A DNA stretch of 59,074 nucleotides, counting the filler, from Jimgerdemannia flammicorona (taxonomy: Eukaryota), in assembly GCA_003990765.1 (NCBI GenBank). It is 2 parts of 2 records of this genome, joined end to end, with 100 filler letters (N's around TTAATTAATTAA, not from the genome) between each part and the next. Parts side by side here need not be neighbours in the genome. Positions count along the whole stretch, not along the records: positions 29,598 to 59,074 come from RBNJ01000497.1; 1 more part is not named here. One strand, written 5' to 3'. How positions within the stretch are numbered: the first letter of the stretch is position 1; each line of letters starts with the position of its first letter. The position numbers were made by a program, and so were the translations under genes. The notes beneath the pieces were generated by a model, which worked only from the letters and a program-made list of their open reading frames with translations, searched no databases and was not told the DNA's origin. Shown piece after piece: positions 23,785-59,074 of the stretch.

Positions 23785-23795
23785 CAGGAGGAAGA
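23785..23795 (+). promoter_or_regulatory. Polypurine tract of A2
   Basis: CAGGAGGAAGA immediately before the TG of the 3' LTR. Confidence 0.85.
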
Positions 23796-23805
23796 TGTAA
23801 TGGTC

Positions 23806-24990: not shown

Positions 24991-24996
24991 GGAAGA

Positions 24997-25491: not shown

Positions 25492-25495
25492 ATAT

Positions 25496-25890: not shown

Positions 25891-25962
<72 letters not shown>

Positions 25963-29497: not shown

Positions 29498-29597
29498 NNN
29501 NNNNNNNNNNNNNNNNNNNNNNNNNNNNNNNNNNNNNNNNNTTAATTAATTAANNNNNNNNNNNNNNNNNNNNNNNNNNNNNNNNNNNNNNNNNNNN
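29498..29597. other. Artificial contig spacer (44 N + TTAATTAATTAA + 44 N)
   Basis: Symmetric 100-nt linker with stop codons in all six frames. Confidence 0.97.
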
Positions 29598-32552
29598 TTT
29601 TTTATAGTTATAAAGACTTCTACTTTATTATAAAACTGTCTATAATATACTAATACAAATGAGCTCTTCCCTCAATCTCACTTGGGAACTCCCTCTCCTC
29701 TTCATTATTTCTTTGAAACACTGCTAACTCCCCTTCTATCTCAATCCTCTTCTCACTCTTTCTGCAGATTGTCTCCATCAATCACCTCCAATACCCCCCA
29801 CCAGCACTCTCACCCCTCCACTATCCATTTAATATATCTGTCATCAGCTACTCCCATCTAGCCACTCTTACCCTCAATGTCAACTGTTGACTCTCCTCAA
29901 ATATATATAGCCAATGTCCTGCAAGTCTAATCCAAATTGCCAGTATCTATCCTAATATCAACTACTCATCTCCTAACCCCCCCACCAGCCTCCTCCAGAG
30001 GTCACTCCATCTCTTTCCTGCTGCTAACCCTAGTGAATATATCTCTAGCCACATCTCAATCTCTTTTTAAAAGTCACACATTACCTCATACTCTCCTAGT
30101 TGATGCTCAGGAGTCTGTACTACTCCTCTCTTCTGCCCAATGTTCAGACACTCCTCATACTCCTGGATACCTCCTTCCACGAAGTGGTCTATTCAGTATT
30201 TCAATATTATATAATATTATAGAATTCTCCACCATACTATCCAAAACTTGTAGGGGATTCATCTCACTGCCTGCTTACCTTACAGTCAAATGTTATTTTA
30301 GTCATATTTCTCTTCAATTCCCACCCCTTGCCATGTCTCAGACTACAGATCTCTTCTATGTTCCTGAAGGCACTCTATGCTATTCTCTAAGCAAAGTCAT
30401 CCACTAATGTTCTGTCTAATAGAAGATAGTCCCACCTCTATATCTGAGATTTCCATTCCTCCTCCCCCTCATCACCCCTCTATTGAAGACCAATACAGTG
30501 TGCCCCATCAATCACCCCTTATCAGAATTCCCTATATTGCATTCTCTGACTCTTCTCCAAAGCCACCAGAGTTAGAAGATCCCCAGTTGTACTATAGAGA
30601 GAAAACTGGACCTCCTACACCCTCTGCATGTGGGAAACCCCCTCTCAACCTCTTAACTCACTTACTTGCTTCAGCTACCTTACTCTCAAGTAGTAAAGTT
30701 ACTTAGAAAAATCCACCAGACTCAGGCCTCCCTGGTCTACTGGCCAGATCAATACCTTACAACCAATCTGACTCTATTGCCCTACCTATATCTAGGTTCT
30801 GGCCATCTTCAACAATCACTTTACCACTTATGCTGAAAAGGCCAAGTAGTACCCCAGATACTATAGCTTAAACAACTAGTATATATTCAATACTATTACC
30901 TTTTCTGTCAGAGATATATAGTAACCGCCCCACTTCAAGAAAGTACTTCTCTACTATATCAACTGCTTCTCCTATCACCCATATAGTAGCAAGGAGCCAT
31001 ATACCAAAAAGTAAATTTCCAGATAGTAAACAATCTCTCCTACAGAGATAATTGTTCCAATTATATCTCTACCTATTATCTCTTCTCTCAACACTATAGT
31101 CTCATACTTATACCAGTTGAGCTTTGTATCCAAGTACTCCTCAAACCACTCTACTGCACCTTTTAGCACTGCAACATCCTTAGCTGACCCCAGTCCAACC
31201 ACCATATTATCAGCAAAGACCCCCACCTTTCTATTAATCCCCAGAATGTCCAACTCTTCCACCTTTTACTATATTCTATCCAAAAGAGGCTCCAGAGATA
31301 ATATATATAGAATCAGTAATAGTGGATCTCTCTGCAGCACTTCTTGGCCCAGAGGGAACAAAATTCCTTTATATCTATTTATTATAATTACTGTCCAACT
31401 CCCTTCCAGTAGACCAATCAAGGCCTACCATACTCCAGGGGGGACTTCAATATACTTTAGTACTCCTTTCAACTATACATACCAGACTCTATCATATGCC
31501 TTCTTCTGGTCTAAGAAAACTAGCTGCCTATTCACTCCAGTAGTATGAGTACCCTTGATAATACCATGTATCCAGGCTGTCCCATCTCTAATTAGATGTC
31601 TCCCAATAAATTCTTTCTGCTCAGCCCACAGAACCTATTGAGTCACTTCTTGTAGCCTAGCCACTAGTACCTTTATGACCTGTTTGCAATCCATATCCAG
31701 AAGTATAATCATCCTCCAGTTCTTTCACTTCTCTCTTCTCTTCTTATTCTTAAACAGCAGAGCTATAAGATCCAAGCTCTGCCCTCTCATCCATACCCTA
31801 GAGCCAATCACTTCATCATATATTGCCATTATTTCCTCTTGGACAGTAGCACCTAGATTACTTAAGCCTGCTGTCAGATCAGAGTGCTATTCATCCAAGT
31901 ATCTGTCAATGTTCAGTACCTCCACTCCTCTATTCTCCTCACTCTATAAATATCTCCACCATCTGCTTAACTGGTCTAGAATCTCTAGCCTCCCAACAAC
32001 CAACTCCCCAGACTCATCCAAAACACCCTCTCACTACTGCCATACTCTCCTCATCAGTAAAAGCTATAACAAAAACTTGGTAGGTCTTTACCCCTCCTCT
32101 AATCTCTATCACTACAGGCAGGCCACTATGTTCTTAACCTGTAGGTCCTCTTCTTACCTCAGTATACTCTTTAGCTCCTCTACCTCTAGCCTGATCTACT
32201 GTATTTATTAATCTCCTTTCTTATCATCATTCAATAGATCTATCTACTAAGTCATCAATAACCTTACATACCACTAGAAGACCTACCTCACTCAACTTCT
32301 TTCTCTGAGTACCCCACATTCTTCCTGCCTCCCTCCAGTATCATTGTGCCTCAGATTTCAATTATATCCAGTGATTCTCAATCTCCAGCCTCTCTGCTCT
32401 CCAACTAAGAATCCTGGAGCTAATATCTACTACCCACACCTCCTATAGAGAGGCCTAGGTATTCAGTCACCAATGTCCAGACCCCTCTCCACTACTCTCA
32501 AAACACCCCTCTTCTAGAAGACCTCAGTGATCTGACATAGATACTATATAGT
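29598..32552 (-). mobile_element. L1/Tx1-like LINE copy 1, 3' part (RT to poly(A))
   Basis: Reverse-complement homologue of about 35250-38344, with FLDQKKAYD, QRDPL and VFADN. Confidence 0.9.
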
Positions 32553-32630
32553 CATATGGGCCCCTTTTACTGACAACATTCAGATGACATAAGACTCAGG
32601 CAACACTTTTTACAATGTTTTTGGTGATAG

Positions 32631-34559
32631 ATGAGTATCGACATAGATAGCAATGATTACACAGGTGAGCGTGCTGGTCAGGGGAGCAGTGGTGCCTTTG
32701 GCTAGCAATAAGTGGAGAGGAGGGGAGATGGTTTGGGGATGCCAGGGGACTTGATGGCTGGTAGAGGTACTGGTGGTAGAGGGAGGGGTGGCCTGAGGCA
32801 AAGTGGAGAGGAGAGGTCAACCTTTGCTGACAAGGTCAAGATGGGGAGAATGGCCACTAGTCTGGATGGTTGGCTGGGCCTGGGGAAGGCATCAATAGCT
32901 ACTGCTGGGGGACAGAGAGGAGTGTCCAGGGGAGTGTCCAGTGGTAGGGGAGGGGGGGGAGTAGGGGCTGGAGATGTGACTGTTGATGGAGCTGTGACTG
33001 GGGATCTGGAAAAAAATCCAGATATGATTGCAGTTGATGGTTCAGGACAGGGGGTGGGCATGAGGCCCAGGGACCTAGTGGATGGGGTGATGGGCATGGT
33101 GTTGGCACCATTACACAAGAAATCAAGATCATAATTTGCTGTCACATTGTGTTTCAGGGGCTTGGTGGTAACTGTAAGGATAATCTTGGGGCTGGTGATA
33201 CAGGAGGTGAAAGGGGTAGCATTGGTGAAGTTTTTGAAGAGGAAGGAAGGGGTCGAGGTAGGGTTTGAGGAAGAGGAAGCATTGCTGGCTACCATGGAGA
33301 AGTGGGTAATAGTGGGTGGGGTTGTGGTTCCTATGGCCAGGTGCATGTACTGGGACCCTTGTATGATATAGTTGATGATGTTGGATCTTCCTATGGTATT
33401 GAGAGAGAGGGCCAGGGAGTTGATTGTGGGAGCAGTCAAGGAGTATGGAGATATTGTAGACATCAGGTTCAAGGTCTGGGAGGGTACAGAGCTCTGGACA
33501 GGTGATGTTGATGTCTGGGTGAGACTGGTTGGAAAGGAGAACATGAGGAAGACAAGGGATTAGTCAGTGACTCTGAAGTGGGGACAAGTGGAGTACAAGG
33601 TTGCAAGGGTGAAGGGGACTCAGGAAGAGGAGGAAGATTTGCTTGAGGCTCTGGAGGATCTGGCTGGTGTGGTTGAGAGGAGGAGATTGGCTTGGAAGGA
33701 GTATGAAGCCAAGATAGTTGTGGAAGTCGTTGATGAGAAGAGGATCAGGATAGATTAGGTGATCTGGGAGAAGATACAGGGGAGGAGAATCCAGAAAGAA
33801 CTGCTGGTGAAGTTGGATGATGGTGGGGCTGGTGGCAGAGCAAGGGATGGGAGAGCAGGATTGTGTGAGAGTGTCTGGGCTGGGGAATGAGAGATGGCCC
33901 AAGGTGGGGCCAAGAATGGACCAAGGAAGAAGAGGGAGGGTAGTGTAGAGGTGGATGCAGAAATGAGCGAAGGAGTACACCCTCAGTATAGTGTCCTGGG
34001 TGGGGCAGGGGGTGAGGAGGAGTTACTGGATATCCCAGATGAGGAGGGGGATGAGTCAGTAAGGAGGAGCACTTTAGTGGACCCAGAGGTGGGGGGTGAT
34101 CAAGTCACCCAGGGTATGGCAGAGGCAGTGGATGAGGAAAAGTGGCTGTGGAAGACTCTGGAAGGGGTAGCAGCAGAAGAGTTGGGGGGTGAGGACTTCC
34201 AGGTTATGGAGGAGAGGCATTGGGAGGAAATTCTTCATAGTGAGGAGATACCAAGAAAAGTGTGGAATGAGATCCTGGCAGTTCTCTTGGAATCAGTTGA
34301 ATACCAAGTTGATGATCAGAGAGAGGAGGAACTTAGAGGGATTGCAAATGACCAGGCAGCTTACTTGTAGGGCTTGAGGAAGGGATTGGAGAAGTGGAGA
34401 GTGGTCTGCACAGACTATCAGTTAGAGATGGAGGTGGTGGATGGGGTGGAATATCAAGAAATCTTGGAAGCATTGGATGCTCAGGCTATCATAGAGGGTG
34501 ACTTGGAAGCAGAGCAGTACTTGGATCTGGCTGGGGATGAGATGAGTATGGAATACTAG
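32631..34559 (+). pseudogene. LINE ORF1 (Gly-rich N-terminus, RRM-like middle, acidic C-terminus)
   Basis: In-frame pieces at 32712, 33147, 33372, 33567, 33894 and 34374. LDLP...EYGDIVDI...WTGDVDVWVRL. No CCHC knuckle seen. Confidence 0.85.
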
Positions 34560-34590
34560 GCTGGAGTCTCAAATCCAAACATTATTCAAT

Positions 34591-37500
34591 ATGAACAGTA
34601 TAACTTGAATATTCTCTTTGAATGTAAATGGGTTATGGGGGGCAGCTAGGAGGAAGTATAATTTGGATGGCTAAAGGGACTGAATGTGGATCTCTTTTTA
34701 CTATAGGATGTCCATTATGAGGTAGATGTGGACTTACAGAATTGGACTAAGGAATGGGGGGGGATGGCAGTATAGATGGGGAGGGTGGGTATTCTAGTTT
34801 GAAAGGGGATGGGGAACATTGGCGACATTGGACATTGGGGGACTCAGTTGGTGTAGAGAGTGTGGAAGAGGCCTGGATGGAGCCTGTTGACAGTTGGGTC
34901 ATATTACTGTCCAGCAGAGAGAGGGGAATGGGTGGATTGGATTCAAAGTTTGAAAGAGGCTGGTGTTTTGAGTGAGATTGGGTTTGACTGTCTTGGGGGT
35001 GACTTCAACATAGTGCAAGATAAGGGGATGGACAGGACAGATGACAGGAGAGGAATGAGGAGCAGGAGTGGTGGGTTGGATGATTGGTTAGAGATAGAGG
35101 TTGAGTTTTTTGGTTGATTCAGGGAGCCAGTTTTGAGATGATCATCAAATTTATACTCACTGGATGATAAGGCTGGGCTCAAGGATTGACTGGATATTGA
35201 TAGCAGAATGCTGAAGAGCAGCTCTCTGGACAATGCTGGAGGTGGTGGGGTGTCTGTGGTCAGATCACTGGGGTCTGTTAGGAGGGGGGAGGTTTGGGGG
35301 AAGTGGGGATGGGCCTGGACATTGGTGACTGAATTCTTCTTTGTTAGAGAATGGGGCTTCATGGGCAGACTGGCAGAAGGAGGTTATTGAGAAAATTAAG
35401 AGGTGGCAGGAACAGGGCCTGGTAATTGGGGACTACTGGAGGAGACTGAAAGTAAGTGCTCAGGGGTACTGGAGGGAAGCAGGGAAAGGGAGGTGTACTT
35501 AGCAGCAGCAGAGGGTGCTATGGGTCTCACAGTGATTGGCAGCACTTATGGGGAGATGGGCAGGGGTGCTAGAAGACTGGGAGTGGCCAACTGGTGTATT
35601 GTGATGATCCAGAAGGAAGTTGAGGAGCTTAAGGGAGTGTTACAAAGGGAGGAAGAGGTTAGGCTGAAGGGGATGGTGGCATGGCTGAGGTGGTAGGGGC
35701 TTGAGGAGGGAGAGAGATCTACTAGGTTTTTATCATGAATATTACAAGCACAGAGAACTAATCAGCAGTGGGATGGGCTCCTGGATATAGATGGGGAAAT
35801 AGTGGTGAAGACTCTAGTGATTCTGGGATTACTGAGGACTTGTTGGGTGGATTTGTGGAGTGAGGAGAAAGGGGGGGAGGATGCTTTGAACATTGAGAGG
35901 CAGCTGGAAGATTGGTATCCAGATCCTGCAATGGGCCTGGAGACTCTGGGAGATCCAGTGAAGGGTGAGGAAATTTGCAAGGTCTTGGCTGTGACAAGTA
36001 AGGGGATGGCTCTGGGTGAGAATGGACTTCTCTAGGATTTTTGGAAGAAGATGGCTGGGGTGGCAGAGGTATTGGAGGAAATGATGGAAATGTGTGATAA
36101 TGTTCTTTGGTCTGAAACTTGGATTGGGGGCCAGGACCTAGGACTGGTCTCCTTGCTCTACAAAGATAAGAGGTGATGGAAAGATTGGAAGAACTGGCAG
36201 CCAATCATGCTACTTGACATGGACTGCAAACTAGTGACAAAGATATTAGTGATAAGGCTGCAGGGAATTGCTCAGCAAGTACTTGGTGTGAAGCAACAAG
36301 GATTTGTCAGTGGCCAGTTGATCTGAGATGGGACAGCTTGGGTACATGGTATGATTAAATGGGCCCAGGCTGCAGGGGTGGATGGCAGATTGGTTTTTTT
36401 GGATCAGGAGAAGGCATATGATAGACTGAGGAGAATCTGGCTAGAGAAAGTATTGAAATGGGTTGGTGTTCCCCCAGGGTTCCTAAGGTCATTGATTGGT
36501 CTTTTGGAGAACAGTCAGGCTGCATTGGTCATCAATGGCCACAGGGGTATAACCTTTCCTCTTGATCATGGGGTGCCACAAGGAGACCCTTTGTCACCCA
36601 TCTTATATGCCCTCTCTCTGGAGCCCCTACTGGATAGGATCTGGCATCGAATTCGGAGTTTGGACATTCTAGTGATTAATTGAAAGGTGGGGGCCTTTGC
36701 AGATAACATAGTGGTTGGACTGGGCTCATTAGCAGATGTGGGGGAGTTAAGGAGATCTGTTGAATGGTATGAGAGGGGCTCTGGTGCTAGACTCAATTGG
36801 CACAAATGTGAGACTCTGGTACTAGGTGGCAGAATTGTTGGTGGTAATGTGGTTGGGATAGTGGTACTGGCAGGAGAGCCAGTTCGTTATCTGGGGATCT
36901 ACTTTTCAGTATTTGGGTCCCTTCTGCCCCATGCATGGTGGGATCAATAACTCCTGACATGGGGAAATGTGCTTTTGTGATGGGGTGGTTGGCATATATC
37001 CTTGGCAGGAAGGGTGACAGTGCTGAATATGTATTGGATGCTGAAGCTGTGGTATGTGAGATACATATCATCTGGACTTCTCAGCTTGGGTGGTCAGGAG
37101 ACTGATGAAAATGGCAAGATCATTGATCTGAGCAGAGCAGCAGAGTCAGATAGGTTGGGAGGTTCTGACCTTCCCAGTGGAAAGAGGTGGGCTGGGTTTA
37201 GTGGACTTTACCAAATAGCTTCATTGCTTGAGAGCATGGTGGCTGAGGAGGGCGAGTGAGCTGAGGGATCAGGAGTGGGTACTGCTTATGCAGAGGGTGT
37301 GAGAGGCCCGGTATTCCCCCCATGGAGCCTCTGGTGACCTTCTTGCATTGGTGGCCATGGATGGGAGCAAGAGGATATAGTATAAGGGCTTCTGGTGGAG
37401 AGTGGTGGATGGTATTAGAAGAATTAGACTTTGGTGGCAGAGTGATGAGGGAGAGGAGGATTGGGGACCACAGATGTGGAGATGGGACAGGCTGCTGCTG

Positions 37501-38265
37501 GGCAGTGTTTTGGTGGAGGACTTCCAGCTTGGCAATGAAATGGAGTATTTGCAGGGCTTAGGTGGGAACCTTTTGCCTGAAACCTGGCAGAGGGTTGGGA
37601 TTGGCAAGGTGTGAGAATGGAATGGTCTCTGGCTTTGGGGCAGGTGGGTGATGTGGTGGCTACCCCCCAAGTTCTGGGTGGTTTGGTGGTAAGTTCTTAG
37701 GCAGAATGTGATGTTGAACTATCAGTCTGGGCACTTGGTGGCCAGTGGCACGTTTGAATGTGAGAAATGTTCAGATGTTGGACAGGAAGGGGGAGTGATA
37801 CAAATGCCTGAACATTGGCTTGGCAAATGTGATGTTTTGGGGATGTTTGGCATCATATTGCAGACTGGTTAGGGCTGCAAGCCCTGAAAGGAGAGGAAGG
37901 GGGGAGATGGAGAGAGCTCTGCCAAAGACTGGTAGGAGGGTTTGGGGATGAATGGCTGATCCTTGGTTGGGTTCTGGCCATATGGGTCAGGCTGGCTAGA
38001 CATTGGGTATATGTATTTGAGGAGGGCCAGTGGGTTGGCATTGGGGATAAGGTGGTACATTGGAAATAGTTATTACTGGATATTTTGAATGGCTGGTGGT
38101 GAGGGTGAGGACCAGGTGGGGGGAGTCACAGGGGGTTGGTACAGTGTATCTCCCAGAAAAGTGGCGGGAGAATTCAGGTGGTGGGTGACTGGGTTGTCCT
38201 CTAGCAGGGGGGAGTAGAGGATGGAGGAGTAGATCCGAGGGGTATCAGTTGAAGGGAAGGGGTGA
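34591..38265 (+). pseudogene. LINE ORF2: AP endonuclease, reverse transcriptase and C-terminal Cys/His motif
   Basis: SLNVNGL, GGDFN, SDH, NWQPIMLLDMDCK, LDQEKAYD, GVPQGDPLSPILY, FADN, YLGI and CEKC..EHWLGKC. Confidence 0.93.
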
Positions 38266-38360
38266 TATTGTATTATTATTATTATAGACAGCCATAATAA
38301 AGAGAAGTCCAAGTGACTATAAAAATAAAAAAAAAAAAAAAAAAATAGACACTATACAGT

Positions 38361-41010
38361 TTTTCCAAAGTTCTCCAGATATTGACTCCCTAGCATTTAG
38401 CATTTAACACCCAGTTAATCCTTGAGCCCAACCCTGCTACTGAGTGAGTATAGACTCTATGATCCCCTATCTAAGTCTCCTAGAATTTACTAAAGTGCTC
38501 AAAAATTCGACTTCCTCCCAGACCTCCATACCACCACTTCTACCAACTATCTCTCTTCTTCTATCAGTTCTGTCTATCCTTCTATCACATATCATATTAA
38601 AGTCTCCACCTAGGTAGTCAATCCCTATCTCCACCAATACTTCAGACTCTTATAGCCCTTGAATCCATTCCACCCTCTCTCATCTTTCTACTGGACAATA
38701 CATAGTATAACCTAATAGTTAAGAGTTACTAGCCTGGCCTCCTCCAAACTCTCTATACTACTCTATTCCCCCAATGTCCAACATCTTTAATATCTGCTGC
38801 TCTCTTTCTAACCAGAATACCCACACACCCCTGCCATACCACTATATCTTCCTATTCTCTCATCCAATCCAGAATATCCAAGTCTCTATTATATCCAATA
38901 TTCTATAGTAAGAATAAATCTGCATTCATTCTCTTTAGTCATCCAAAGATATTTTGATGCCTTGCTACTCCACATAGCCTTTGGATATTCAAAGACAAAA
39001 TTGTTCATATTGAATAATATTATTTAAAGAATAGCTATCTACTCTCTAATTCTATACTTACTGTATTACCTGCATCATCTAGGTTTCTCTCTGCCTCAAG
39101 CTCATCTGCCTCTCTCTACTGAGTATCCAATGCCTCTAAGATCTCCTAACAATCTACACTATCCAGAGCTTCTATCTCTGTCTAGTACTCCTTGTATATC
39201 ATCTGCAACTTCACTAACCCCTTTCTCAGATACTACATATATAGCTCAGTTATTCACAATTGCCAGAAGTATCTCCTCTCTATCATCATCTACTTAGTAT
39301 ACTCCAGCCTCTAGCAGAGCTGCCATTATCTCATCCAGGAGTTTCTACTACATCTCTTCACCATGCAGGATTTTACCCCAGTGCCTCTCACTCAGTATCC
39401 AAAAGTCCTCTCCCCATAGCTCCTCAGGCACTACATTTTCTAACATCTTCCACAGCTATTTCTCCTTGTCTACAGCCTCCTCCACTCTCTGCACCACCTC
39501 CTTCTGCCCTTCCACCTGCCCCCCCTCTATATTCCTTCTCACCAACTTGTCTAAAACCTCCTCCAGCTCTTCTGCAGTTTGTAATCTCCTTCAGCCCCAT
39601 CTAGCACTCTATACTGAGAGTGCTCCCCCTCAACCATCTTCTCATTCTCTATGACAACACTCAGTCCAGAGCCTCCCCTCCCTCCTGGGGCCTCCTCTGG
39701 TGCTACTCCCTTTCTCCTACCAAGACACTTATTCTTAATTCAGCTTCTTCTACAGTAGTCCCCCCCTCTACCCCCCCTCCCAACTTGGCCAACAGATCCT
39801 TCTAAATATACCTCTCTTATGCCCTCTCTCAGGCTGTCTAATCCAGCTACACCTTCTTACCATTCACAATTTCTATTACTGTCTTAACCTCAAACTCTTT
39901 CCAAACCAATCTCCTTCTCTTCATAGCCTCAGCCAGATTCTCTAGTATCTCCAGTATATCCTTTTCTTCCTCCAGCATCTCTTTTACTCTTAAGACCTTG
40001 TACTCCACAGGTCCCCATTTGAGGACTGCTAGCCAGTCTCTTACTTTCTCTATATTCTTCTTATCTGTCAGTCATACTCTAATATCTATATCTTCTGTCC
40101 TAAACTCTATGCCTTCCTAGACTCTAAACTCAATATCTATGATATCTCTATTCTCCTTTATAACCTCTATAATCAACTCTCTGGCCATCTCTTTTGACAT
40201 TATAGGAATATCTAATACTGTCAGCTATACTATTTGAAGATCCTAGTACAAGTACTGGGCTATAGAGAATATGACCCCTCCTATAACTACTCTATTCTCT
40301 ATCACTTCTAACAGCATATCCTCTTTTTTGAAGCCTATCTCCACCCCTTTCAGACCCTTCAAAAATTTCACCAAGGCTACTCTCTTCATCTTCTGGGCTA
40401 AAAGCCCTAGATCATCCTTATAGTCATCACTAAGCCCTAGAAATATAACATGATAGCAAATTCTAATCTCAACTTCTTGAGTAACAGTACCACCACCAGA
40501 CCTATCACACCATCTGTCAGATCTCCAGGCCTCATTCCCACTCTCTACTCAGACTTACTATTAACTATTATATCTGACTTTTTTTTCAAATTAGTAGTCT
40601 CCTTGTTATCAGCAGTTCTACTTTCTCCAGCAACTACTCCTCTAGCCCTGCCACTCTCACTACAATGGGCTGCTCTACCAGGCCTAGCAGCCCTTGCCAT
40701 CTTCTTGCTCTTTCTCAGCCAACCCTCTAATCTAGTCATCAGATGGCCTTTCTTCACCTTGTCTGCAAAGCTCATCTTCCTAGTCTCCTATCTTCTAGTA
40801 CTACCCCCTCCCCTTCTACATCCTCCTACTAGCAGATTCTGCATACTTTCCCCCAAGCCATGACTCCTCCCCACATACTGCTAGTCAAATATACTAGAGC
40901 TACCCTGTCTAGTACATCCTTTGGAATACTCATCAGTTGCTATATTACTAGTATCTATTCTCTAAAAATGATGTCTTGAGTATTGCCACAAGTTTGTATA
41001 ATCTGAATAT
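38361..41010 (-). mobile_element. LINE copy 1, 5' part (ORF1 and APE)
   Basis: Joins seamlessly to 32552 across the TSD, next to the SDH motif. Contains SFADKVK. The 5' ATTCAG lies near 41008. Confidence 0.9.
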
Positions 41011-42093
41011 TATAGAAGAAAGGTATATAAAAGTAGTAACTTTTGCAGAAATTAATAGTCTTAATAATTAATTAATAAGTCAAATTGAGCTAGATCTCAT
41101 AAATAACTTTAACCTATAAGAGTTCTATAATGATGATGCATGAATGATATCTTCAATAAACTTATTAGTTTATTTCAAACACCCATCTCTTAGATCCAGA
41201 TATCTATAAATATCTGACTATAGAAATTTCTATATCAGCTAATGTGAGACTAGTTTCACCAGTATCTACACTATTATCTGAAACTATAAAATCACAACTA
41301 AACTCTGAAGAGTCTAGTATTATATCATCTGAATCCAAAACTCTGAGAGAGATCTTATCTTCTTTTACAGAAGTCTGTTACTACTATATAATATAATAGA
41401 TATTATATTACAAAATCTTAGTCAAAACCTAGAAAAATTTCTTCATAGTTAATTTATAAAAATAATATTATTAAATATTATTATTATGACTAAGCAATAA
41501 TACTATTGTGGTATAACTTTATATGTATATTATTTCTAGTAATTATCTATTTTATATATATCTTTTAGCCAATAGTTAGTTAATATTAAAAGACCTTCAA
41601 AATATATAAAATTCTTCAGAGAAGTAACTCAATAAAGATAGAATCTTATAATGAAGAATTTAGTTAAAAGAAAAAGATCTTACATTTGTAATTTATAGAT
41701 TAGTCTCTGAATAATCTAAAATTAAAAGACTATATCTAAAATTAGATATTCTGAATCCTATAAATATTTGAACTCTGAAGAATCTAAATATATTTCTCAA
41801 AACCAGATTATATCTAAAGAGGATATATTAAAAGACTTAAACTTTATATATAGTATCAAAGTCTATAATTGTCAAATTATTATGCAAGTCTATCAGAAGG
41901 AAACTAGATTAATTAGAAGTATAACAAATAGTACTTAGATATTAAGATAGCTGCTTTCTTAAACTAAAGACATCAGATATAAGTGCTTTTAAGTCTTTGA
42001 TCTCAAGAGTTATTATATAAGAAAATAAAGAATTATTAAATAGTCTATAAGCTATAACTAAATATATTCTATGAGAAGTCACAATATATATAC

Positions 42094-45000
42094 TATAATG
42101 GTTGATCTGAATTAGGAATATAAATCAGAGAAATTTGATATTTGATTGTAGTACCTGATCCCAATTCCCAGTATAGTATAGCCTTATGAATATTAGTTAT
42201 TTTACAAACATTAAAGTTTCATGAATGTTAAACTCTTCACAAATGTTAAGAATTTACAGATGTTAAATTTTTGATAATTATCAAAGATTTAACAAATGTC
42301 AAGAATTAACATTTGTAAAAAGTAACTCATAACATAGTTATAACTTAGCCTCTATATAGCTAGCAAACTTGTATAAAAAATCCAGTATCTTAGAGTGAAT
42401 AAACCTCAGATCAAAATAGTTCAAAGCTAAGAGAAAGTAAAGGAACTAGTAAGCCTGCAGACAGATATACTTTGAACTTACTCTCCTGCACCCTGAGGAC
42501 TCTGTGAGAGTCCGAATAAGTTAAGTTTTCAAGATATAGAAATCTGCTATACTTCTGAGATTAGATGTCTACTATATTATAACTTGGTACTCATTGGCTG
42601 GTAATTCAAGACAAATCCATCACTTTCAAACTGAATAATGAACAACTACTACCACCCAAACAACTATACAAATTGAACCAAGACATCCAGACAAGATAGA
42701 TATAAGACCATCAGTATTTCATAGATATACTTCAGATGAATCAATCATTATCTTTATTGATGATTTGAGCAGTATACTATTGTAAGGACCCTGACAGCAA
42801 TACAGCAAGTAGCCCTCCAGCCTTTCAGTCTCTGAGGATTAGCAAGAGCAGCATTTACAGACAATATGTGGGAAATAATAACAATATAGTACTAGTTGCA
42901 CAGAAGGCCTGGCTCCAAGCCACCTACTATATAGATAAGATCAAGCAAGCCCTGAAATTTCAGCTTAATATAACTTATCAGAGAATGAGTGAGGATCTAA
43001 ACACATTCTATACCAGAATCTAATATCAGATAATTCTTGCAGATCATACTACTACTATCTGAGATCAATTAGCAAGACAACCTTCATGAAAGGAGTTTAC
43101 TCAGAGATAGTCCTAGCTATTCACTCATTACTAATAGTTCTGGATCTATTACAAAAAGTTACCTATGCCCAGTGATACTGGATAGCCAGATACTTGCAAG
43201 ACCATACAATAGAGAGAGTCACCAGAGTTAGAATTGAAGTACCCAAGGCAACTAGTGTAATCTCTACTATAGTGATCAATCAAAACATACCTCAGTAAAG
43301 AGCTACCAAATAGTAGAGAAATAGTGACCCCATGGAGAAACTCACTAAGAAGTTTACTGAAATGACAGCTCATCTAGAAGATATGGTAAAGGAAATTAAA
43401 GGAAGAGATTGCTGCCAAGCTTAGAAATTTGCCACTACCTCAGACAAGAAGAGAGGTTCCTACTACTCTTGTAAAGAAAAAAGCCACTGCTCATATGAAT
43501 ATATCAGTAAAACTAAGTACAAGGTCTAGTCAAGCAATGCTACTTGAAATAAGAAACAGACCAACACTATTACCTTTGAGGAGATTGGGGAATTAGATAA
43601 AGAGGAATAAATGCCTACTCTGCCAAAACTATCAAAAAAGATATCTACAAACAAACTCTACAAGAGACTACTAGAGAGACCCAAGAAGAACTCTGTGGAA
43701 AAATAGATAGAGACTGCTACAGAAAGTCAAGATGAAGAAACAGATCCAGATATGGAACTAGAACAGGTTATTCAAGATATCATATGAGGAATCACTCTAG
43801 TTAGTGAAGGAGAAAAGGAGAAAAAGCTTTACAAAATCAAGACCTTCAAGTATTATATCTTCAAGAATCTCAGTCAACAAAAAGGCAATACAATCTTGAC
43901 CAGCTAGCAGAAATTTCTGCATTTAGACAACAAATAAGATATAGACTTGCTGAGACAACCAATGTTCAAGAAGACTTAGGAGAAGAGAGCAAAGACAATC
44001 ACAAGACCTCTGCCTATGCAATCTATCAGATTGAAGATAGAATCTTCAAAGCCATCATTGAAACAGGAGTAGAAGGATAAGAAAGTAGCAGACTGCCTAG
44101 GTTGAGAAGTTGAAGAAGCAACTAAGCTAGTATTTATCATAGCAGATAGTATAAGAGCCACACCTCTGAGAAAGATCCAAGATATTCCCATCAAGTTTGG
44201 GGGAGCAACTATTCTGATGTGATTGTAACCAATGTCATCAATTATGACATCCTTATTGATAATCAGTGGCTTTATAAAGCCAAAGCAATAATTAATCTAA
44301 ATACTCAGAAGATGCAGATCATCTACAGAGGCCAGAAGATGTGAATCACCATTAATGTTAATAAAGGAGTATTGTCTGAGATGGTGGAAGAAGAATGTGA
44401 GCAAGAAGAAGTATATATAGTAACTACTCAGAAAAAGAAGAAGAAAGTCAGATAGATCAGTGAAGAAGACTGATGTAAGAAGATTACAGAAAGATATACA
44501 CCACAAGAAGTCTGCCCCCATAGAATCAAGATATACTGTAGCAAGCACATCAATGACTGCTACCAATATAGCATCAGCATCAGAAAGAACTATCAGGAAA
44601 GAAGACAGAAGGTTCTTGAAAAGCAGACAAAAGAAGAGGAGGAAGAGGATGACAAACCATCAGCTCCCTTAGAGGATAGTGATGATGAAGAAAAAATCAA
44701 GGTCAAGATTTGGAGGATCCACTCTGATGCAGTTCTATCAGAAAACATATCAGAAAATACAACCATAATGGATATTACCACAGTAGAAGAAACTGTACTG
44801 AAGCTCCAGACAACTATCCTACTTGCAACTGGTCTAGAGATGACTATTCTGAAGGACTACATATATCAGAATCCTCAAAACAAGAAGTAGCCAGGCTAGG
44901 AGTGAAATCACAATTGAAGGAGGAGTTATCAATTCAGATTATATTGGAGAAATACTATTTATGGCTAGGAACCACAATCCTACAATTCCATTTTCAATTA

Positions 45001-45278
45001 AGAAGAAGAACTGACTGGCACAGATGTTGATCTTCCTAGTTCTTCAGCCAAGGATCATGGAAGTCAAGAAGTTGGAGAAAATAGAAAGAGGAGAGAAAGG
45101 ATTCAGATCCACAGAAAGAGGAGTATTTGCTAGTATCAGAATCACTAAACTAGATTACAAGAGGGAGAAAACTGCAAACAGATATGGCTACACTATTGGA
45201 AATGAATTCCCACTCAAAAAGGAACTCAAGAAGATACTCTATGAATTCAAGAATGTCTTAGCTACAGATTTCAAGGAT
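42094..45278 (+). mobile_element. Gypsy family A copy A3, 3'-truncated (LTR, PBS, gag, protease, dUTPase)
   Basis: 5' LTR at 42094-42581, PBS at 42585, colinear with 17516 to about 20758. Confidence 0.93.
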
Positions 45279-47962
45279 CTTCATCCATTCTGTCCAGCAG
45301 TCTATCACTTATTATGTTAAAATCACCCCCTAGACAGTCAATTCCCTTGGCTACCATAATACTCACAACTCTTAGTCTCCTTATCCACTCCACATGTTCT
45401 CTCCTTTCTGCTGGACAATATCATGACCCAATAGTCAAGGGGCTCTAGCCCAGCCTTATCTACACTCTCAATACTACTCTGCTCCTACAATGTCCAATGT
45501 CCCCAATGTCCCCCTTGCCCTTCCTAACCAGAATACCCACCTGACCCTGCTATACTACTATACTTTCCCATTCCCTTTTTCAATTCTGCACATTCAAGCC
45601 AGCATCATAGCTTATGTCCTATAATAAGTACAGATCTATATCTAGCTCCTTCAATTAGCTAAAGATATTCCAATATCTCATTGCACCTCTCAAACCATTG
45701 ATATTTAAAGAGAAGATTCTAGTTATTCTATTCATTTTGAATAATTTTTAGAGAGTAAGCATCTATCCTACAATTTCATACTTATCATATTACCAGCAAT
45801 ATCTAGATTCTAATCTATCTCAAGTTCATCTGCCTCTCTCTGCTGAGCATCCACTGCTTCCAAGATCCTCAATAGTCTACACCATCCACTGCCTCCATGT
45901 CAGACCAGTAGTCCTTATACACCACTTGCCACTACTCCAACCCCTACCTAGGTCCCTACAGATATACTGCCCACTTATTTATAATAGTTAGAAGCACTGC
46001 CTCTCTGATATTATCAACCTCATAATTCTTTGTCTCCAATAGGCCTACTAATAGTTTATTACAAAGCTTCTGTACTACCTCCTCTCCTTGCAGGATCTCA
46101 TCCCAGTATCACTCACTAATCATCCTAAAATCCACCTTGCCCAACTCATTAGCTATAACATTCATCAATCTCTTCTACAGCTACTTCTCCAACCCCTATC
46201 TAGGTCCCCACAGATATGCTGCTCACTCATTCATAATGGTTAGAAGCACTGCCTCTCTGGCATCATTAATCTCATATTTCTTTATCTTCAATAAGTCTAC
46301 CAATAGTTTATTATAAAGCTTCTATACTACCTTCTCTTCATATAGGATCTCACTCCAGTATTACTTGCTAATCACCCTAAAATCCACCTTACCCAACTCA
46401 TCAGCTACAATATTCATCAATGTTTTCTATAGCCACTTCTTCTCCTCTATGATCTCATCAATATCTAGAACTACCTTCTGCCTCCCTGCTCCTGAATCCC
46501 TCTCTACATTCATCCTTACTGACTCATCCCAGTCCTTCTCCAGTATATCTTGCAGCTTATCAGTCTCTCACCCTCCTGTAGACACCCCATACTATACTTG
46601 GGCCTCCTCTGTCATCATCATATTCTCAGTCCTAGCACTCTGCTTGAAGCTTCCCCCCTCCTCCAGAGTCTCCATAGGAGTCCACCCCCTTTCTCCGACC
46701 CAAGTACTCATTCTTGATCCACCACTGACTACAGTAGTATTGCTCTCTGCCCTCTCTCCCAGATCTGCCAATAGGTCCTTCTGATATTGCCTCTCTTATA
46801 CTCTCTCTAATATAGTCTTATCCAGTTATACTCTCCTGCCATTCACTATTTCAACTACTGTCCTAGCCTCAAACTCTCTCCAGGCCAGCCTTCTCTTCTC
46901 CACAGCTCCAGTCAGATCCTCCAATACCTCTAGCAAGTCCTCCTTCTCTTCTGATATCTCTTTCACCCTCAAGACCTTATACTTCACTAGTCCCTACTTT
47001 AGTGCCACTGGTCAATCCCATTCTTTTCCAGTATTCTCCTTACCCATCACCCTAATCTGAACATTTATATTACTAGTCCAGAACTCAGTCCATTCCCTCA
47101 TTCAGAAGCTAACATTTACTACATTCAGCATACTTTTTAATAATGTCTATGATTAGCTCTCTGGCTACTTTCTTCTTCACTATGGGTATATTTGGCACCA
47201 CTAGTTGAACTACTCTAGAGTCCTAGTATAGATACTGAGCTATAGAAATCACCATCCCTCTCACCACTACTCTTTTCTCCAATACTTCTAACATTAACTC
47301 CTCCTTTTCAAAGCCTATCTCTACTCCTTTCAGTCTCTTCAAAACCTTCACTGAAGCCACTTCTTTCATCTTCTGAGCTAGAAGACCCAGAACCATTTTT
47401 ATCATAACTACTAAGCCTCTGAAGTACAAAGTGATGGTGAATTTGATTACTAACTTCTTGAGTAATAGTGCTACCACCAAACCTGTTACATCATCAGCCA
47501 GATCTCTAGCCCTTATGACTCCCCCAGCCCAGTTCAATTAGCTATTATATAGGATTTTGTTTCAGATTAGCAGTCCTATCTCTATCAGCAGTTCGGCTCC
47601 CCCCAGTCTCTACTCCTGCAGCCCTACCACTAGTGCCACTATAGACTCTCCTGCTAGGTCCTACAGCTCCCTCCTTCTCTTTGCCCTTCTGTAGCCAGCC
47701 CTTCAGTCCAGTCACCAGATTCTCTATCTTGCTTATTAGTAAAACTTATTCTTCCAGACCCCTGTCTGTTGGTTCCCCCTCATTTACCTTCTTGTTTACC
47801 AGCAAGAGTGCCCAATAGGCTCTCCCCCAGTCTGTGACTCCTCTCTACATACTACTAGTTTAATGTACTAGAGCCACTCTACCCTATATATTCCTTATTA
47901 GTTACTATGTTATTATCATCTTTTCTCCAAAAATAATATCAAAAGTTTTGTATAACCTGAAT
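45279..47962 (-). mobile_element. LINE copy 3, 3'-truncated (ORF1 and start of APE)
   Basis: GGDFN remnant near 45330, homology to ORF1, and a 5' ATTCAG at about 47962. Confidence 0.88.
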
Positions 47963-48140
47963 TATACTAGAGAAAGATATTAATTTAATTTGTCTTTATA
48001 TAAGTTGTAGTATATATAAATAATTAGGTATAGATAACTATACTATGCTAAAAGTTTATATTATCTAATTATACTTTATTATTCACTTGTTATATTGATA
48101 ATAAGTTTATTTTATATAAGATCTATAATTAATATATCTT

Positions 48141-57050: not shown

Positions 57051-57473
57051 TAATTTGAGACTATCTCCATGCCAAGTTTTAAGAAGATAGTTCAATTTCT
57101 TAGAAATTTCATACTGCCTCTTTCCCTAACAAGGAAATCAGAGTCTAGTAAAATCCGGATTTAGTTTGCCACCAAATCAAAATGTCCAAGCCACCCGAAA
57201 AGCAGTCTAAGCCTATCTGGAGCAGTTAAACCTGCATCTGGATAAATGTCAAATTATAGTGATATGGATATAGGAAACTGCCACCATTCTGATATGATGA
57301 TTTCAGATTCAATAACTGAGTTGAAATAATTATTGAACTGCTCAGACTTCAGTATATTATTGTAAGATACTGGAGATGACTGGAGACTACTGAATAACAT
57401 TAGAGATACTGGAGATAGAGACATTAAAGATGGATATATATAGAGATACTAAAGATAAAGATATTGAAGATAG

Positions 57474-59049
57474 TGTAACAGTGACCCCAGAATGATGACA
57501 TCAGCACAGGTGACAGCCTTTCCTTGCAAGCCACCAGATTGGAGCACAAGAAGATTATATGGCATACGAGATAAGCAATGATGATCAACTGTGAGTCATT
57601 GTGACTACAGTACAAGCATCCCAAAGAATATAAAAGAAGGATCAAAGAACCATTGTAGCAGCAACCAACAAGAACCACCAATCTCAAAATAGCTCAAAGA
57701 CTTACCATAAATGAAATGCCTGCTGCCTGCCAAACCTCAAGGTCAAGGAACCATCAAGGCACCTCAGTTGAAGAAAGGATGTTCCAAGACATCAGAAGAG
57801 CCATGGGGACCTATACAAGAAGGACTCCCAGCATCAACCTAGATACTGCAGACCCTTATCACTTTATTCTCTACTGCTGTGAAATGGAAACAAGGATCAC
57901 CATTGCTACCAAATGTCTCCAAATGTGGCAGGAGTATGAAATAGGAAACCTCCTCTGCCAGGAGTTCCCACAGGCCAGCACTCAAGAGCTACAAGATGCC
58001 ACTCCCATGGATATATGTGAAATGAGGATAGCTAAGAAAATCCATCAGATCTTCAGGCATGCACCATGGTCAATCCCCAAATTGGAGTATATTAGAGTCT
58101 CAGACTTCAGAGATCTGTCATCTCACTATATCAATATACTAGAAGCCAGAGTGGCTACAGAAGCCCAGTCCACTATCACCCTCAACAGCAAAGAAGTAGA
58201 AGACTTCTGGCATCCCATCCTTCAGGAGAACCCAGACCAATTCCTGCAAGGATTGATCTCAGTATTCCAAGGTCCAAGCATCCAGGTTAGACCTCCCCAA
58301 GACCCTACATTTGTTCCTTATTTTGTAGAAGAGAACCTCAAAGACTGGAGAGCTCCAGATCTTGTTCCCGATTTCCCCACCGAATGTGATGATGTCATCG
58401 GCAATGACATCATCCCGCATGACATATGCAAAGCATGCAAACTGTATGATGATGAATTTGTGGATCTCATCTCCTTCAGTAATGATGATGATGATGAAGC
58501 CCCCATGGTCCTGAACTTTCTGCACTAAGTTCTTTATTACACTGGATAATACTACCACTGGTATTCTCATGTAACACTGGATAATGCCAGCACTGATATT
58601 CTGAGGTGATGTGAAATTGTTCCAGCACTAGTATTCTGAGGTGATGCGAAATTGTTCCAGCACTGGCATTTTGATGTGATACTAAATAATACCAGCATCC
58701 TAAACCTGTACAACCATTAGTGCCAACTCTGGAACTTAGTAGTTTTAGTTATTAGAATTTAAATTTAGCTTTATATCTTAGCAACCATTGAATTATATTT
58801 TATATAAATACTCCTCTTATTTCCTCTGAAATAAAGTCAGTCAAGTTTCAGTCAAGTTCACTTACACATACTTCCTTGCAAGCAATCTAAGAGATAACAA
58901 GATAGTTAAAGATAAGAAGTTTGAGGACTATAAGACCTTGGGAAGGTACTCCAATAAGAACTTGCTTATAACAAACTTGAGTTAGTCTAAGAGATACACC
59001 TTGAAGAGAATCTGGCATATTTGAAGGACTCAGCGACCACTATGTGACA
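57474..59049 (+). repeat. 5' LTR (1576 bp) of a Gypsy B element continuing beyond the window
   Basis: TGTAACA...TGTGACA termini followed by ACT plus PBS. Homologous to 6922-8474. Subrepeats of about 34 bp at about 58540-58700 and TATATAAATA at 58801. Confidence 0.9.
57716..58528 (+). CDS. Intact 270-aa ORF inside the LTR (U3), unknown function
   Basis: Stop-free ATG ORF conserved in the second LTR copy. The central region resembles Gypsy A ORF3 and the tail is acidic. Confidence 0.8.
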   Translation: MPAACQTSRSRNHQGTSVEERMFQDIRRAMGTYTRRTPSINLDTADPYHFILYCCEMETRITIATKCLQMWQEYEIGNLLCQEFPQASTQELQDATPMDICEMRIAKKIHQIFRHAPWSIPKLEYIRVSDFRDLSSHYINILEARVATEAQSTITLNSKEVEDFWHPILQENPDQFLQGLISVFQGPSIQVRPPQDPTFVPYFVEENLKDWRAPDLVPDFPTECDDVIGNDIIPHDICKACKLYDDEFVDLISFSNDDDDEAPMVLNFLH

Positions 59050-59052
59050 ACT

Positions 59053-59074
59053 TGGTGCCCATTGACTGGTGATT
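59053..59074 (+). promoter_or_regulatory. Putative primer-binding site of Gypsy B
   Basis: TGGTGCCCATTGACTGGTGATT, matching the family A PBS. Confidence 0.8.

What the first reader, a model, noticed from the sequence alone, without database searches (positions are those of the whole stretch)
57474..59049. 1.6-kb LTR encodes an intact 270-aa protein in U3
Seen: the ORF at 57716-58528 lies between the TG start of the LTR and the TATA box at 58801, and the PBS follows the LTR end. The minus-strand LTR at 6922-8474 holds the same ORF, also 813 nt, with conservative changes. Established: ORFs in U3 are known from retroviruses (MMTV sag, HIV nef overlap) but are atypical for fungal Ty3/Gypsy. Inference: a regulator or anti-silencing factor that would also persist in solo LTRs.
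Basis: partly seen in the sequence, partly recalled or inferred. Interest (0 to 1): 0.8.

Follow-up and report, generated by a model that had tools for sequence, protein, structure and literature searches.

The report
Conserved protein gene inside retrotransposon LTR
A 1.6-kb long terminal repeat of a Ty3/Gypsy-type retrotransposon carries, wholly inside its U3 part, an intact and evolutionarily conserved gene for a 270-residue protein with no known relatives or fold, an arrangement otherwise known mainly from a few retroviruses.

Summary
The core observation holds. Window 57474-59049 is a real 1576-bp LTR. It has TG..CA ends and a primer-binding site right after it, shared with a full dUTPase-bearing Ty3/Gypsy element in the same window. 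In public contigs of two runs a polypurine tract sits directly before position 57474. The 270-codon ORF (57716-58528) lies entirely between the LTR start and the TATA box, so it is in U3. It is not a chance ORF. It belongs to an unnamed protein family of at least three subfamilies (19-82% identity). Variation among copies falls mainly on third codon positions (15 of 19 sites). The protein is soluble and acidic, with a helical core and a disordered acidic tail, and matches no Pfam family or known fold. One claim is wrong. The second copy (8474..6922, minus strand) keeps the same 813-nt frame but has nine premature stops, so it is dead. I could not confirm a fungal host, expression, the regulator/anti-silencing idea, or the paired LTR. 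My best reading is an accessory gene carried in U3, probably regulatory. I class it as a new variant of a known kind.

The parts
57474..59049 (+). Complete 1576-bp LTR (5' LTR of an element that runs off the window end); TGTAAC...GTGACA termini
   Evidence: Sequence. Colinear second copy. Contig cover in 4 public runs starts at 57474-57481 and stops at 59049/59050; loose ends before 57474 read ...TTATTCAGGAGGAAGA (a polypurine tract) in 5 contigs of X1 and 3 of X4.
57474..57520 (+). 5' terminal part of U3, weakly alignable to the start of the 496-bp LTRs of the related elements A, B and C
   Evidence: Alignment A6: TGTAACAGTGAC... against TGTGATAGTCAA...; I estimate roughly 60% identity over the first 45 nt by eye.
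57592..57598 (+). TGAGTCA, an AP-1/Gcn4-type bZIP site motif upstream of the ORF. The motif is recalled and was not tested.
   Evidence: Read from sequence. Changed by transitions in copy 2.
57629..57635 (+). TATAAAA, a TATA-like motif 81 nt upstream of the ORF's ATG; candidate promoter inside U3 (inference)
   Evidence: Read from sequence. Identical in copy 2.
57716..58528 (+). Intact ORF, 270 codons plus stop: soluble acidic protein with a helical core (about residues 18-185) and a disordered acidic Pro-rich tail (186-270)
   Evidence: not chance. (homologs). (selection). (structure and composition).
58546..58697 (+). 35-bp tandem repeat, 4.3 copies, between the ORF stop and the TATA box; enhancer-like U3 repeats (inference)
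   Evidence: Tandem Repeats Finder.
58801..58810 (+). TATATAAATA, the LTR's main TATA box, shared with the short LTRs of elements A, B and C
   Evidence: alignment A3.
58830..58835 (+). AATAAA polyadenylation signal, followed by an 11-bp x2 repeat (58837-58858); likely R region
   Evidence: Its role as R is inferred.
58779..59049 (+). Promoter-R-U5 part homologous to the 496-bp LTRs of the dUTPase Ty3/Gypsy elements in the window
   Evidence: Alignment A3.
59052..59072 (+). Primer-binding-site region (TGG starts 4 nt after the LTR end), shared with elements B and C
   Evidence: 18013-18033, 2 mismatches, 0 expected by chance. (element C as well).
6922..8474 (-). Second copy of the LTR, decayed. 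It lacks the first 8 nt, abuts another LTR fragment at 8474/8475 and has no PBS after it: a solo or truncated LTR.
   Evidence: Its differences from copy 1 are mostly C>T (106) and G>A (78), against 33 and 33 in the reverse direction.
7418..8230 (-). Pseudogene of the ORF in copy 2: same 813-nt frame, 9 premature stops

Best explanation
Window 57474-59049 is the 5' LTR of a Ty3/Gypsy-type retrotransposon. The element belongs to the lineage of the dUTPase-bearing elements that fill this window (gag-PR-dUTPase-RT-RNaseH-IN). Its U3 is about 1.05 kb longer than in the 496-bp LTRs of those relatives, and the extra part holds a genuine, selected accessory gene of 270 codons.

Shown: the gene lies downstream of the polypurine tract and upstream of the TATA box.

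Follows from the established mechanism of LTR reverse transcription: U3 is templated by the 3' end of the genomic RNA. The gene is therefore the 3'-terminal gene of that RNA and is copied into both LTRs at each round.

Inferred, expression: the gene is expressed from a TATA-like promoter of its own inside U3 (57629) and ends at the LTR's AATAAA (58830), which would let any intact LTR express it. Alternatively it is expressed from a 3'-terminal subgenomic RNA.

Inferred, low confidence (about 0.25-0.3), function: the protein is a nuclear regulator of the element. Its conserved helical core, with the basic helix A-K/L-K/R-x-H-Q-I/V-F-R-H, would bind a target. Its acidic tail, with short hydrophobic motifs (DLISF, LNFLL), would recruit host factors. 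This would parallel the transactivators and adaptors of complex retroviruses.
For: LTR status:
- TG..CA ends.
- The PBS after the LTR is shared with full element B.
- In public contigs, cover starts at 57474 and stops at 59049/50 in 4 of 4 runs laid. The sequence before 57474 is a common polypurine tract in 5 contigs of X1 and 3 of X4. It equals, with 1 mismatch, the tract at 23780-23795 that directly precedes the first bases of element B's 3' LTR.
- The last 270 bp are homologous to the LTRs of elements A, B and C.
- Element B has zf-CCHC gag, protease, dUTPase, RT, RNase H and integrase in Ty3/Gypsy order.

Real gene:
- The ORF is 270 aa, against at most 184 aa in 1000 shuffles.
- Homologs: 5 at 60-81% identity, more distant ones at 31-44% and 11 with the profile. 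In the alignment of 19 sequences, three subfamilies share the start MP(A/P), several motifs and an acidic tail.
- Conservation is uneven, with a core at residues 142-215.
- Of the 19 best-supported differences between the window ORF and the laid contigs, 15 are at third codon positions. The composition-corrected expectation is 6.1 and P is about 5e-5. Ten are synonymous.
- All indels between the two window copies are multiples of 3.
- NG86 dN/dS between the two copies is 0.32, against 0.48 +/- 0.08 in 1000 neutral simulations; 12 of 1000 were at or below the observed value.

Protein:
- No membrane segment (highest 19-residue hydropathy 0.86), pI 4.6, basic N-terminus, acidic tail.
- Helices over residues 18-185 with pLDDT around 70-90; tail disordered.
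Against: - The element's interior and its second LTR lie beyond the window, so LTR pairing and a target-site duplication were not seen.
- No DNA of the homologs could be fetched. Whether the distant subfamilies also sit in LTRs is unknown, and a proper multi-copy dN/dS was not possible.
- The codon-position test uses only the 40 differences printed of 320.
- The two-copy dN/dS signal is modest, and copy 2 has about as many stops (9) as neutral decay predicts (8.0).
- There is no expression evidence.
- The function has no direct support: no Pfam family, no PDB sequence match and no fold match. Foldseek gave nothing at E <= 0.001, and the best VIA Z values were 5.3 and 4.3. Helix-turn-helix regulators are frequent among the weak rows over residues 63-108, but all lie below the tool's stated noise level for helical models.
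- The promoter motifs in U3 are read by eye.
Confidence: 0.7

Rival explanations
1. Passenger gene. The ORF is a host gene, or a piece of one, that was captured into U3 and is carried along without serving the element. The conservation seen reflects selection on host paralogs, and the distant homologs would be the host genes.
For: U3 is about 1.05 kb longer than in the sister LTRs and the extra part has no counterpart in them. This fits an insertion or capture. The genomic setting of the distant homologs is unknown.
Against: The family is seen almost only on short contigs and in several near-identical members per cluster, as repeats are. Copies of the LTR-borne form differ mainly at third codon positions and by in-frame indels, so selection acted while the gene rode in the LTR. 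Hundreds to thousands of contigs of this LTR at 80-100% likeness were laid in public runs.
Confidence: 0.15
2. Not a true LTR. The unit is the 3' internal region of one element (an ORF3 after pol) plus a short LTR of about 300-500 bp.
For: Only the last 270 bp resemble the short LTRs of elements A, B and C. The paired LTR is not in the window. Copy 2 has no PBS after it.
Against: In contigs of two runs a polypurine tract abuts position 57474, upstream of the ORF and not downstream of it. No purine tract or TG start precedes the 270-bp part. In the window copy the flank before 57474 is unrelated simple-repeat DNA and a PBS follows 59049, as expected of a 5' LTR. The first 45 nt resemble the start of the short LTRs.
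Confidence: 0.05
3. The ORF is a chance or decaying open frame with no function, left open only because this copy is young.
For: No Pfam family or known fold. The other window copy is dead. No RNA evidence.
Against: Shuffles never reach 270 aa. Full-length relatives exist at 27-70% protein identity with the same start and similar ends. Third-position excess.
Confidence: 0.03
4. Same anatomy but a different role. The protein is not a transcription regulator. It is an adaptor that counters host silencing or supports particle assembly or trafficking through the short motifs of its tail.
For: The tail (186-270) is disordered and acidic and carries conserved short motifs (VRPPQDPTFVPYF, DWRAPD, DLISF, LNFLL). 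The window shows heavy C-to-T decay and CpG loss of repeats, so host pressure on these elements is strong.
Against: Nothing specific: no known silencing-suppressor or adaptor domain was found.
Confidence: 0.2

Closest known systems
MMTV sag (superantigen gene in the U3 of a betaretrovirus LTR); the comparison rests on recalled knowledge
   Same: A whole protein-coding ORF lies inside U3, so it is present in both LTRs and at the 3' end of the genomic RNA.
   Different: Sag is a type II membrane glycoprotein of a vertebrate retrovirus. This protein has no hydrophobic segment and no Pfam match. Its element is a Ty3/Gypsy-type retrotransposon with no env seen in its relatives.
Lentiviral nef and foamy-virus bel/tas/bet genes that overlap U3 (recalled knowledge)
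   Same: 3'-terminal accessory genes of regulator or adaptor type that extend into U3. Tas is a transactivator with an acidic activating end, which is the working model proposed here.
   Different: Those genes only overlap U3 and start upstream of the polypurine tract. Here the whole ORF is downstream of it. No sequence or fold similarity was found.
Additional ORFs (aORFs) of LTR retrotransposons: plant Ogre, Retand and Grande; bdelloid Juno and Vesta ORF3
   Same: Extra genes of unknown or regulatory role carried by Ty3/Gypsy-type elements (PMC7264820 and PMC5408684, passages read; PMC12786077, passages read).
   Different: In the passages I read, these ORFs lie in the internal region (before gag, or between pol and the 3' LTR, sense or antisense). 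Phrase searches of those papers for ORFs 'in/within/inside the LTR' gave no passage that places an ORF in an LTR. Here the ORF is inside the LTR.
dUTPase-bearing Ty3/Gypsy elements (Postia PosPlaTy3, Phanerochaete, Tuber Tmt1; bdelloid Juno/Vesta/TelKA)
   Same: The sister elements in the window have dUTPase between protease and RT, as described for PosPlaTy3-5 and the bdelloid families (PMC2864245 and PMC5408684, passages read). PBS, polypurine tract and LTR ends tie the finding's LTR to them.
   Different: In the passages I read, no LTR-borne ORF is mentioned for those families. The interior of the finding's own element is not in the window.

Membership tests
LTR of an LTR retrotransposon | Terminal TG...CA with short inverted ends | tested here: met
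   TGTAAC...GTGACA at 57474 and 59049.
LTR of an LTR retrotransposon | Primer-binding site directly downstream of the 5' LTR | tested here: met
   59052-59072 matches the post-LTR sequence of element B (2 mismatches, 0 expected by chance) and of element C. The priming tRNA was not identified; no tRNA gene is in the window.
LTR of an LTR retrotransposon | Polypurine tract directly upstream of the 3' LTR copy | tested here: met
   Loose ends before 57474 in contigs of X1 (5) and X4 (3) end in CAGGAGGAAGA. The same tract precedes the 3' LTR start of element B at 23780-23795.
LTR of an LTR retrotransposon | Two near-identical direct copies flanking gag-pol, with a target-site duplication | not testable with these tools
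   The window ends 25 nt after the LTR and no genome is held.
Ty3/Gypsy (Metaviridae-type) element | pol order PR-RT-RNaseH-IN, gag with CCHC knuckle | tested here: inconclusive
   Met for sister element B. The finding's own interior is outside the window; it is linked only through PBS, polypurine tract and LTR-end homology.
Protein-coding gene under purifying selection | Open frame beyond chance, homologs at low identity, excess of synonymous or third-position change | tested here: met
   A full dN/dS over many copies was not possible for want of DNA.
MMTV Sag superantigen family | Sequence membership; type II membrane anchor | tested here: not met
   No Pfam family at E <= 0.01, nor at E <= 5 for any retroviral family over the 19 members. 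The highest 19-residue hydropathy is 0.86, so no membrane segment.
Lentiviral Nef / foamy Tas-Bet | Sequence or fold similarity | tested here: inconclusive
   No Pfam hit, no PDB sequence hit, and nothing at E <= 0.001 in the viral structure library. The models are of low to middling confidence (pLDDT 51 and 58).
Helix-turn-helix DNA-binding regulators | Three-helix DNA-binding fold with a recognition helix | tested here: inconclusive
   Many weak rows over residues 63-108 are TetR, AraC, sigma or CENP-B type domains, with Z 3.2-4.1. This is below the tool's noise level for helical models.

The most novel reading that the evidence does not exclude
The LTR is a self-contained gene cassette. A promoter inside U3 drives a new kind of element-encoded transactivator (new fold, acidic activating tail) that acts on the LTR's own 35-bp repeats, and the mRNA ends at the LTR's polyadenylation signal. 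Every intact LTR, solo LTRs included, could then supply the factor in trans to the whole family. That would be a retrotransposon counterpart of the Tas/Tax-type regulators of complex retroviruses, evolved outside vertebrate retroviruses.
Probability: 0.2. Interest if true: 0.85.

Novelty: new variant of a known kind. Interest (0 to 1): 0.62.

Why it matters
LTRs of retrotransposons are treated as non-coding control regions. Annotation pipelines mask them, and LTR-pair dating assumes they evolve neutrally. A conserved gene lying wholly in U3 would show three things:
- Accessory-gene capture into the LTR, known from a few vertebrate retroviruses, also occurs in Ty3/Gypsy-type elements.
- Solo LTRs can be coding units.
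- A new, widespread (soil metagenomes) protein family of unknown fold is tied to retroelement biology.

It also offers a tractable case for asking what an element gains from a gene that is doubled at each insertion.

Tried and rejected
- translated copy 2 in the wrong frame. It is not used; one search replaces it.
- Whole-genome search: no genome is held.
- DNA of relatives. The metagenome contigs protein-pattern scan and DNA-pattern scan, genome contigs and viral contigs gave no related locus. Searches failed because alignment A5 is too diverse, so I repeated them with A2. A multi-copy dN/dS and the context of the distant homologs were therefore out of reach.
- Fused or longer forms: none among 542 candidates. 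This is weak evidence.
- Expression: the look-up of sequencing runs listed no holder on record as RNA. X10 and X17 are only guessed to be RNA, so their cover of the ORF is not used.
- Function searches, all empty. Pfam gave 0 families. At E <= 5 it gave only ATG5_HBR in 3 of 19 members and Importin_rep in 1 of 19, which I take as noise. PDB sequences gave 0. The ESM Atlas gave no usable hit. Foldseek against PDB and the viral library gave nothing at E <= 0.001. The best VIA wide Z values were 5.3 and 4.3.
- P0010 (920 aa, 7 matched stretches) is a repeat protein, judged spurious and left out of the alignments.
- 'Upstream polypurine-tract shift' idea. I considered that U3 grew because an upstream purine tract in an ancestor like element B came into use. 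I rejected this as evidence: B's apparent second tract comes from a 1.19-kb poly-T-led insertion with a 16-bp target duplication inside its 3' LTR.
- Taxon: Rfam found nothing in the window, there are no tRNA genes, and the Atlas taxa for the dUTPase ORF were uninformative.
- Earlier findings of this scan: nothing.
- Literature. Six full-text searches found no paper that describes an ORF inside the LTR of a non-retroviral LTR retrotransposon. The exact phrases 'ORF in the LTR' and 'ORF within the LTR' gave 0 papers. Subscription papers, such as the Tuber Tmt1 paper, and supplements were not seen.
Full report
**1. What is there**

The + strand of 57474-59049 is a 1576-bp unit that starts TGTAAC and ends GTGACA. 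It contains one long ORF, 57716-58528, of 270 codons from ATG to stop. In 1000 dinucleotide-preserving shuffles of the unit the longest ORF averaged 71 aa and never exceeded 184 aa.

Downstream of the ORF lie:
- a 35-bp tandem repeat of 4.3 copies at 58546-58697;
- TATATAAATA at 58801-58810 and AATAAA at 58830-58835;
- an 11-bp x2 repeat at 58837-58858.

Directly after the unit comes AC, then TTGGTGCCCATTGACTGGTGA (59052-59072).

**2. Is it an LTR, and is the ORF inside it?**

The window is a nest of decayed retroelements (self-comparison). One of them, element B (17516-25492), is complete. It has 496-bp LTRs that are 94% identical, and gag with a CCHC knuckle, protease, dUTPase, RT, RNase H and integrase in Ty3/Gypsy order. 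Four lines tie the finding's unit to this lineage and fix its borders.

- **PBS.** The sequence after 59049 matches the sequence after B's 5' LTR (18013-18033) with 2 mismatches, where chance expects 0. Element C has it too.
- **Promoter-R-U5.** The last 270 bp, from just before the TATA box to the end, align with the LTRs of elements A, B and C. The first 45 nt align weakly.
- **Cover in public runs.** I laid contigs of four runs on 57300-59074: 1983, 233, 58 and 39 contigs at 80% likeness or more. Cover begins at 57474-57481 and ends at 59049/59050 in all four.
- **Polypurine tract.** The loose ends of contigs that enter the unit from the left share ...TTATTCAGGAGGAAGA in 5 contigs of X1 and 3 of X4 (24 loose-end rows were printed and 143 were not). 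Apart from one base this is the tract at 23780-23795 that directly precedes the first ten bases of B's 3' LTR. The motif search alone would not be significant (1.9 matches expected at up to 3 mismatches). Its position is what matters.

In 3' copies the unit is therefore preceded by the element's plus-strand primer site. In the window copy it is preceded by unrelated simple repeats and followed by a PBS.

So the ORF is downstream of the polypurine tract and upstream of the TATA box: it is in U3. The paired LTR and a target duplication remain unseen, because the window ends 25 nt after the LTR and no genome is held.

**3. The second copy**

The minus-strand copy 8474..6922 is colinear with the first. 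It is 74% identical over the first 1.07 kb and 83% over the last 0.3 kb, with a diverged stretch between. It lacks the first 8 nt, abuts a fragment of another LTR, and is not followed by a PBS. It is a solo or truncated LTR.

Its homologous frame (8230..7418) has an ATG and a final stop at equivalent places and the same length of 813 nt. All indels against copy 1 are multiples of three (-18, +6, +15, -3). It carries nine premature stops, at positions that are Gln, Trp or Glu codons in copy 1, and is 61% identical as protein. My first translation of it was out of frame and is withdrawn.

Differences between the copies are strongly directional: C>T 106 and G>A 78, against 33 and 33 in reverse, with CpA/TpG sites hit most. 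This is the same decay that makes older repeats of the window AT-rich (GC as low as 0.24); CpG is almost absent throughout.

**4. Is the ORF a real gene?**

*Homologs.*
- A word-indexed search found 5 proteins at 60-81% identity, one of them full-length (271 aa, 70%).
- An exhaustive HMMER search of 1.84 billion representatives found more distant ones: P0006 at 44%, P0008 at 35% over residues 6-256, and P0009 at 31%. It also found one repeat protein that I discard.
- A profile search found 11 proteins, and cluster look-ups added six members.
- All are unnamed 'hypothetical' proteins from metagenome sources, mostly on contigs of 0.6-4.8 kb.

*Alignment of 19 sequences.* There are three subfamilies, 19-82% identical to the query. 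They share:
- the start MP(A/P)...QTS;
- the motifs W-x-x-Y-E-I-G, A-x-x-x-H-Q-I/V-F-R-H-x-P-W and L-Q/R-D-N...L-Q-x-L...F-x-G-P-x-I;
- an acidic tail.

Conservation is uneven, highest at residues 142-215.

*Variation among copies.*
- Of the 40 best-supported differences printed by read laying (280 more were not printed), 19 fall in the ORF, and 15 of these are at third codon positions. The composition-corrected expectation is 6.1, P about 5e-5. Ten are synonymous, and most of the rest are conservative.
- Between the two window copies NG86 dN/dS is 0.32. In 1000 simulations that scatter the same substitution spectrum at random it is 0.48 +/- 0.08, with 12 of 1000 at or below the observed value.
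- That last signal is modest, as expected if much of copy 2's divergence is post-mortem decay: it has 9 stops against 8.0 expected.

Taken together the ORF is a gene that has been kept open and constrained over long divergence, including while it sat in this LTR.

**5. The protein**

- It is soluble, with no hydrophobic segment (highest 19-residue hydropathy 0.86).
- It is acidic overall (pI 4.6), with a basic N-terminus (pI 9.5) and an acidic, proline-rich tail (pI 4.05).
- AlphaFold2 with 9 and then 19 aligned sequences gave mean pLDDT 50.8 and 58.0. The model shows a helical core over residues 18-185, locally 70-92, and a disordered tail.
- The tail holds the best-conserved linear motifs (VRPPQDPTFVPYFVEE, DWRAPD, DLISF). 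Close relatives end in LNFLL or LNILL. The window copy alone ends LNFLH, and all laid contigs differ from it at that position.

Searches for relatives of known function found nothing: no Pfam family, no PDB sequence, no Atlas hit and no fold match. Among the weak VIA rows, helix-turn-helix DNA-binding domains recur over residues 63-108 (Z 3.2-4.1). The tool's own notes place such values within noise for helical models, so this is a lead and nothing more.

**6. How it most likely works**

*Shown:* the gene lies in U3.

*From the established mechanism of LTR reverse transcription:* U3 is copied from the 3' end of the genomic RNA. The gene is thus the 3'-terminal gene of that RNA, beyond the plus-strand primer, and is duplicated into both LTRs at each insertion.

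*Inferred:*
- A TATA-like TATAAAA at 57629-57635, identical in copy 2, and a TGAGTCA motif at 57592-57598 lie upstream of the ATG.
- An mRNA that starts there would end at the LTR's own AATAAA, which would make each intact LTR a 1.2-kb transcription unit.
- A subgenomic 3' RNA is the alternative.

*Inferred, with low confidence:* the helical core, with a conserved basic helix, together with an acidic tail carrying hydrophobic motifs, suggests a regulator or adaptor that serves the element. I rate a transcription regulator at about 0.25-0.3. An adaptor against silencing or for trafficking is about 0.2.

*Origin:* compared with the 496-bp sister LTRs, about 1.05 kb of U3 is extra. Whether this was a capture into U3 or a loss in the short LTRs cannot be told.

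**7. Comparison and novelty**

By position the closest analogues are MMTV sag, and nef or bel genes that overlap U3 (recalled knowledge). Membership in those families is not met or not shown.

Additional ORFs of LTR retrotransposons are well described, but in the passages I read they lie in the internal region (PMC7264820; PMC5408684; PMC12786077). dUTPase-bearing Gypsy elements are reported from basidiomycetes, Tuber and bdelloid rotifers (PMC2864245; PMC5408684). The host may therefore be a fungus, but this is not shown.

Six full-text searches found no description of a conserved ORF inside the LTR of a non-retroviral element. Subscription papers and supplements were not seen.

I class the finding as a new variant of a known kind.

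**8. Verdict**

Confidence is about 0.8 that this is a genuine, selected, LTR-borne gene, and about 0.25-0.3 for the regulator model. Interest is 0.62.

Noticed in passing
window 23806-24990 (element B, 3' LTR): A 1.19-kb GC-rich insert that begins with a run of T splits element B's 3' LTR after its first 10 bases. It is flanked by a 16-bp direct repeat (23790-23805 and 24991-25006, 1 mismatch). This looks like a LINE-mediated retroposed sequence in reverse orientation. Its ORF pieces have no Pfam hit.
   Followed up: partly
window 1-6038, 17516-25492, 42098-45281, 13305-16323(-): Four copies (A, B, C and a minus-strand D) of one dUTPase-bearing Ty3/Gypsy family, 67-77% alike. Only B has both LTRs (94% identical). 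All reading frames are broken.
   Followed up: partly
window 8783-12936: A 4.15-kb element bounded by 506-bp direct repeats (89% identical), GC 0.49, with open frames of up to 422 aa that match no Pfam family. An inverted fragment of its repeat (8473-8797) abuts LTR copy 2. Possibly a non-autonomous LTR element with unknown genes.
   Followed up: no
whole window: CpG is almost absent from all repeats (observed/expected 0-0.12; 0.32 in 8783-12936). Older copies drift to GC 0.24-0.33 through C>T and G>A changes, mostly at CpA/TpG. This points to a strong deamination or RIP-like process in the host.
   Followed up: partly
window 29794-41026 and 45313-47980: Large inverted and direct repeats, 64-68% alike, with very strong GC skew (up to +0.54 and -0.49) and one RT fragment (36327-36680). 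This is another, unclassified retroelement family.
   Followed up: no
window 6314-6582 and 25813-26030: Similar arrays of an 8-bp unit lie about 300 bp downstream of the 3' LTRs of elements A and B. Either the two insertions share flanking DNA (a segmental duplication) or the family prefers this satellite as a target.
   Followed up: no
window 58524 (last codon of the ORF): The window copy ends in His, whereas every laid contig that covers the site differs there and the close relatives end in Leu (LNFLL or LNILL). This is a private change in a conserved C-terminal motif.
   Followed up: partly
window 29498-29541 and 29554-29597: Two runs of 44 N: assembly gaps or masked stretches.
   Followed up: no
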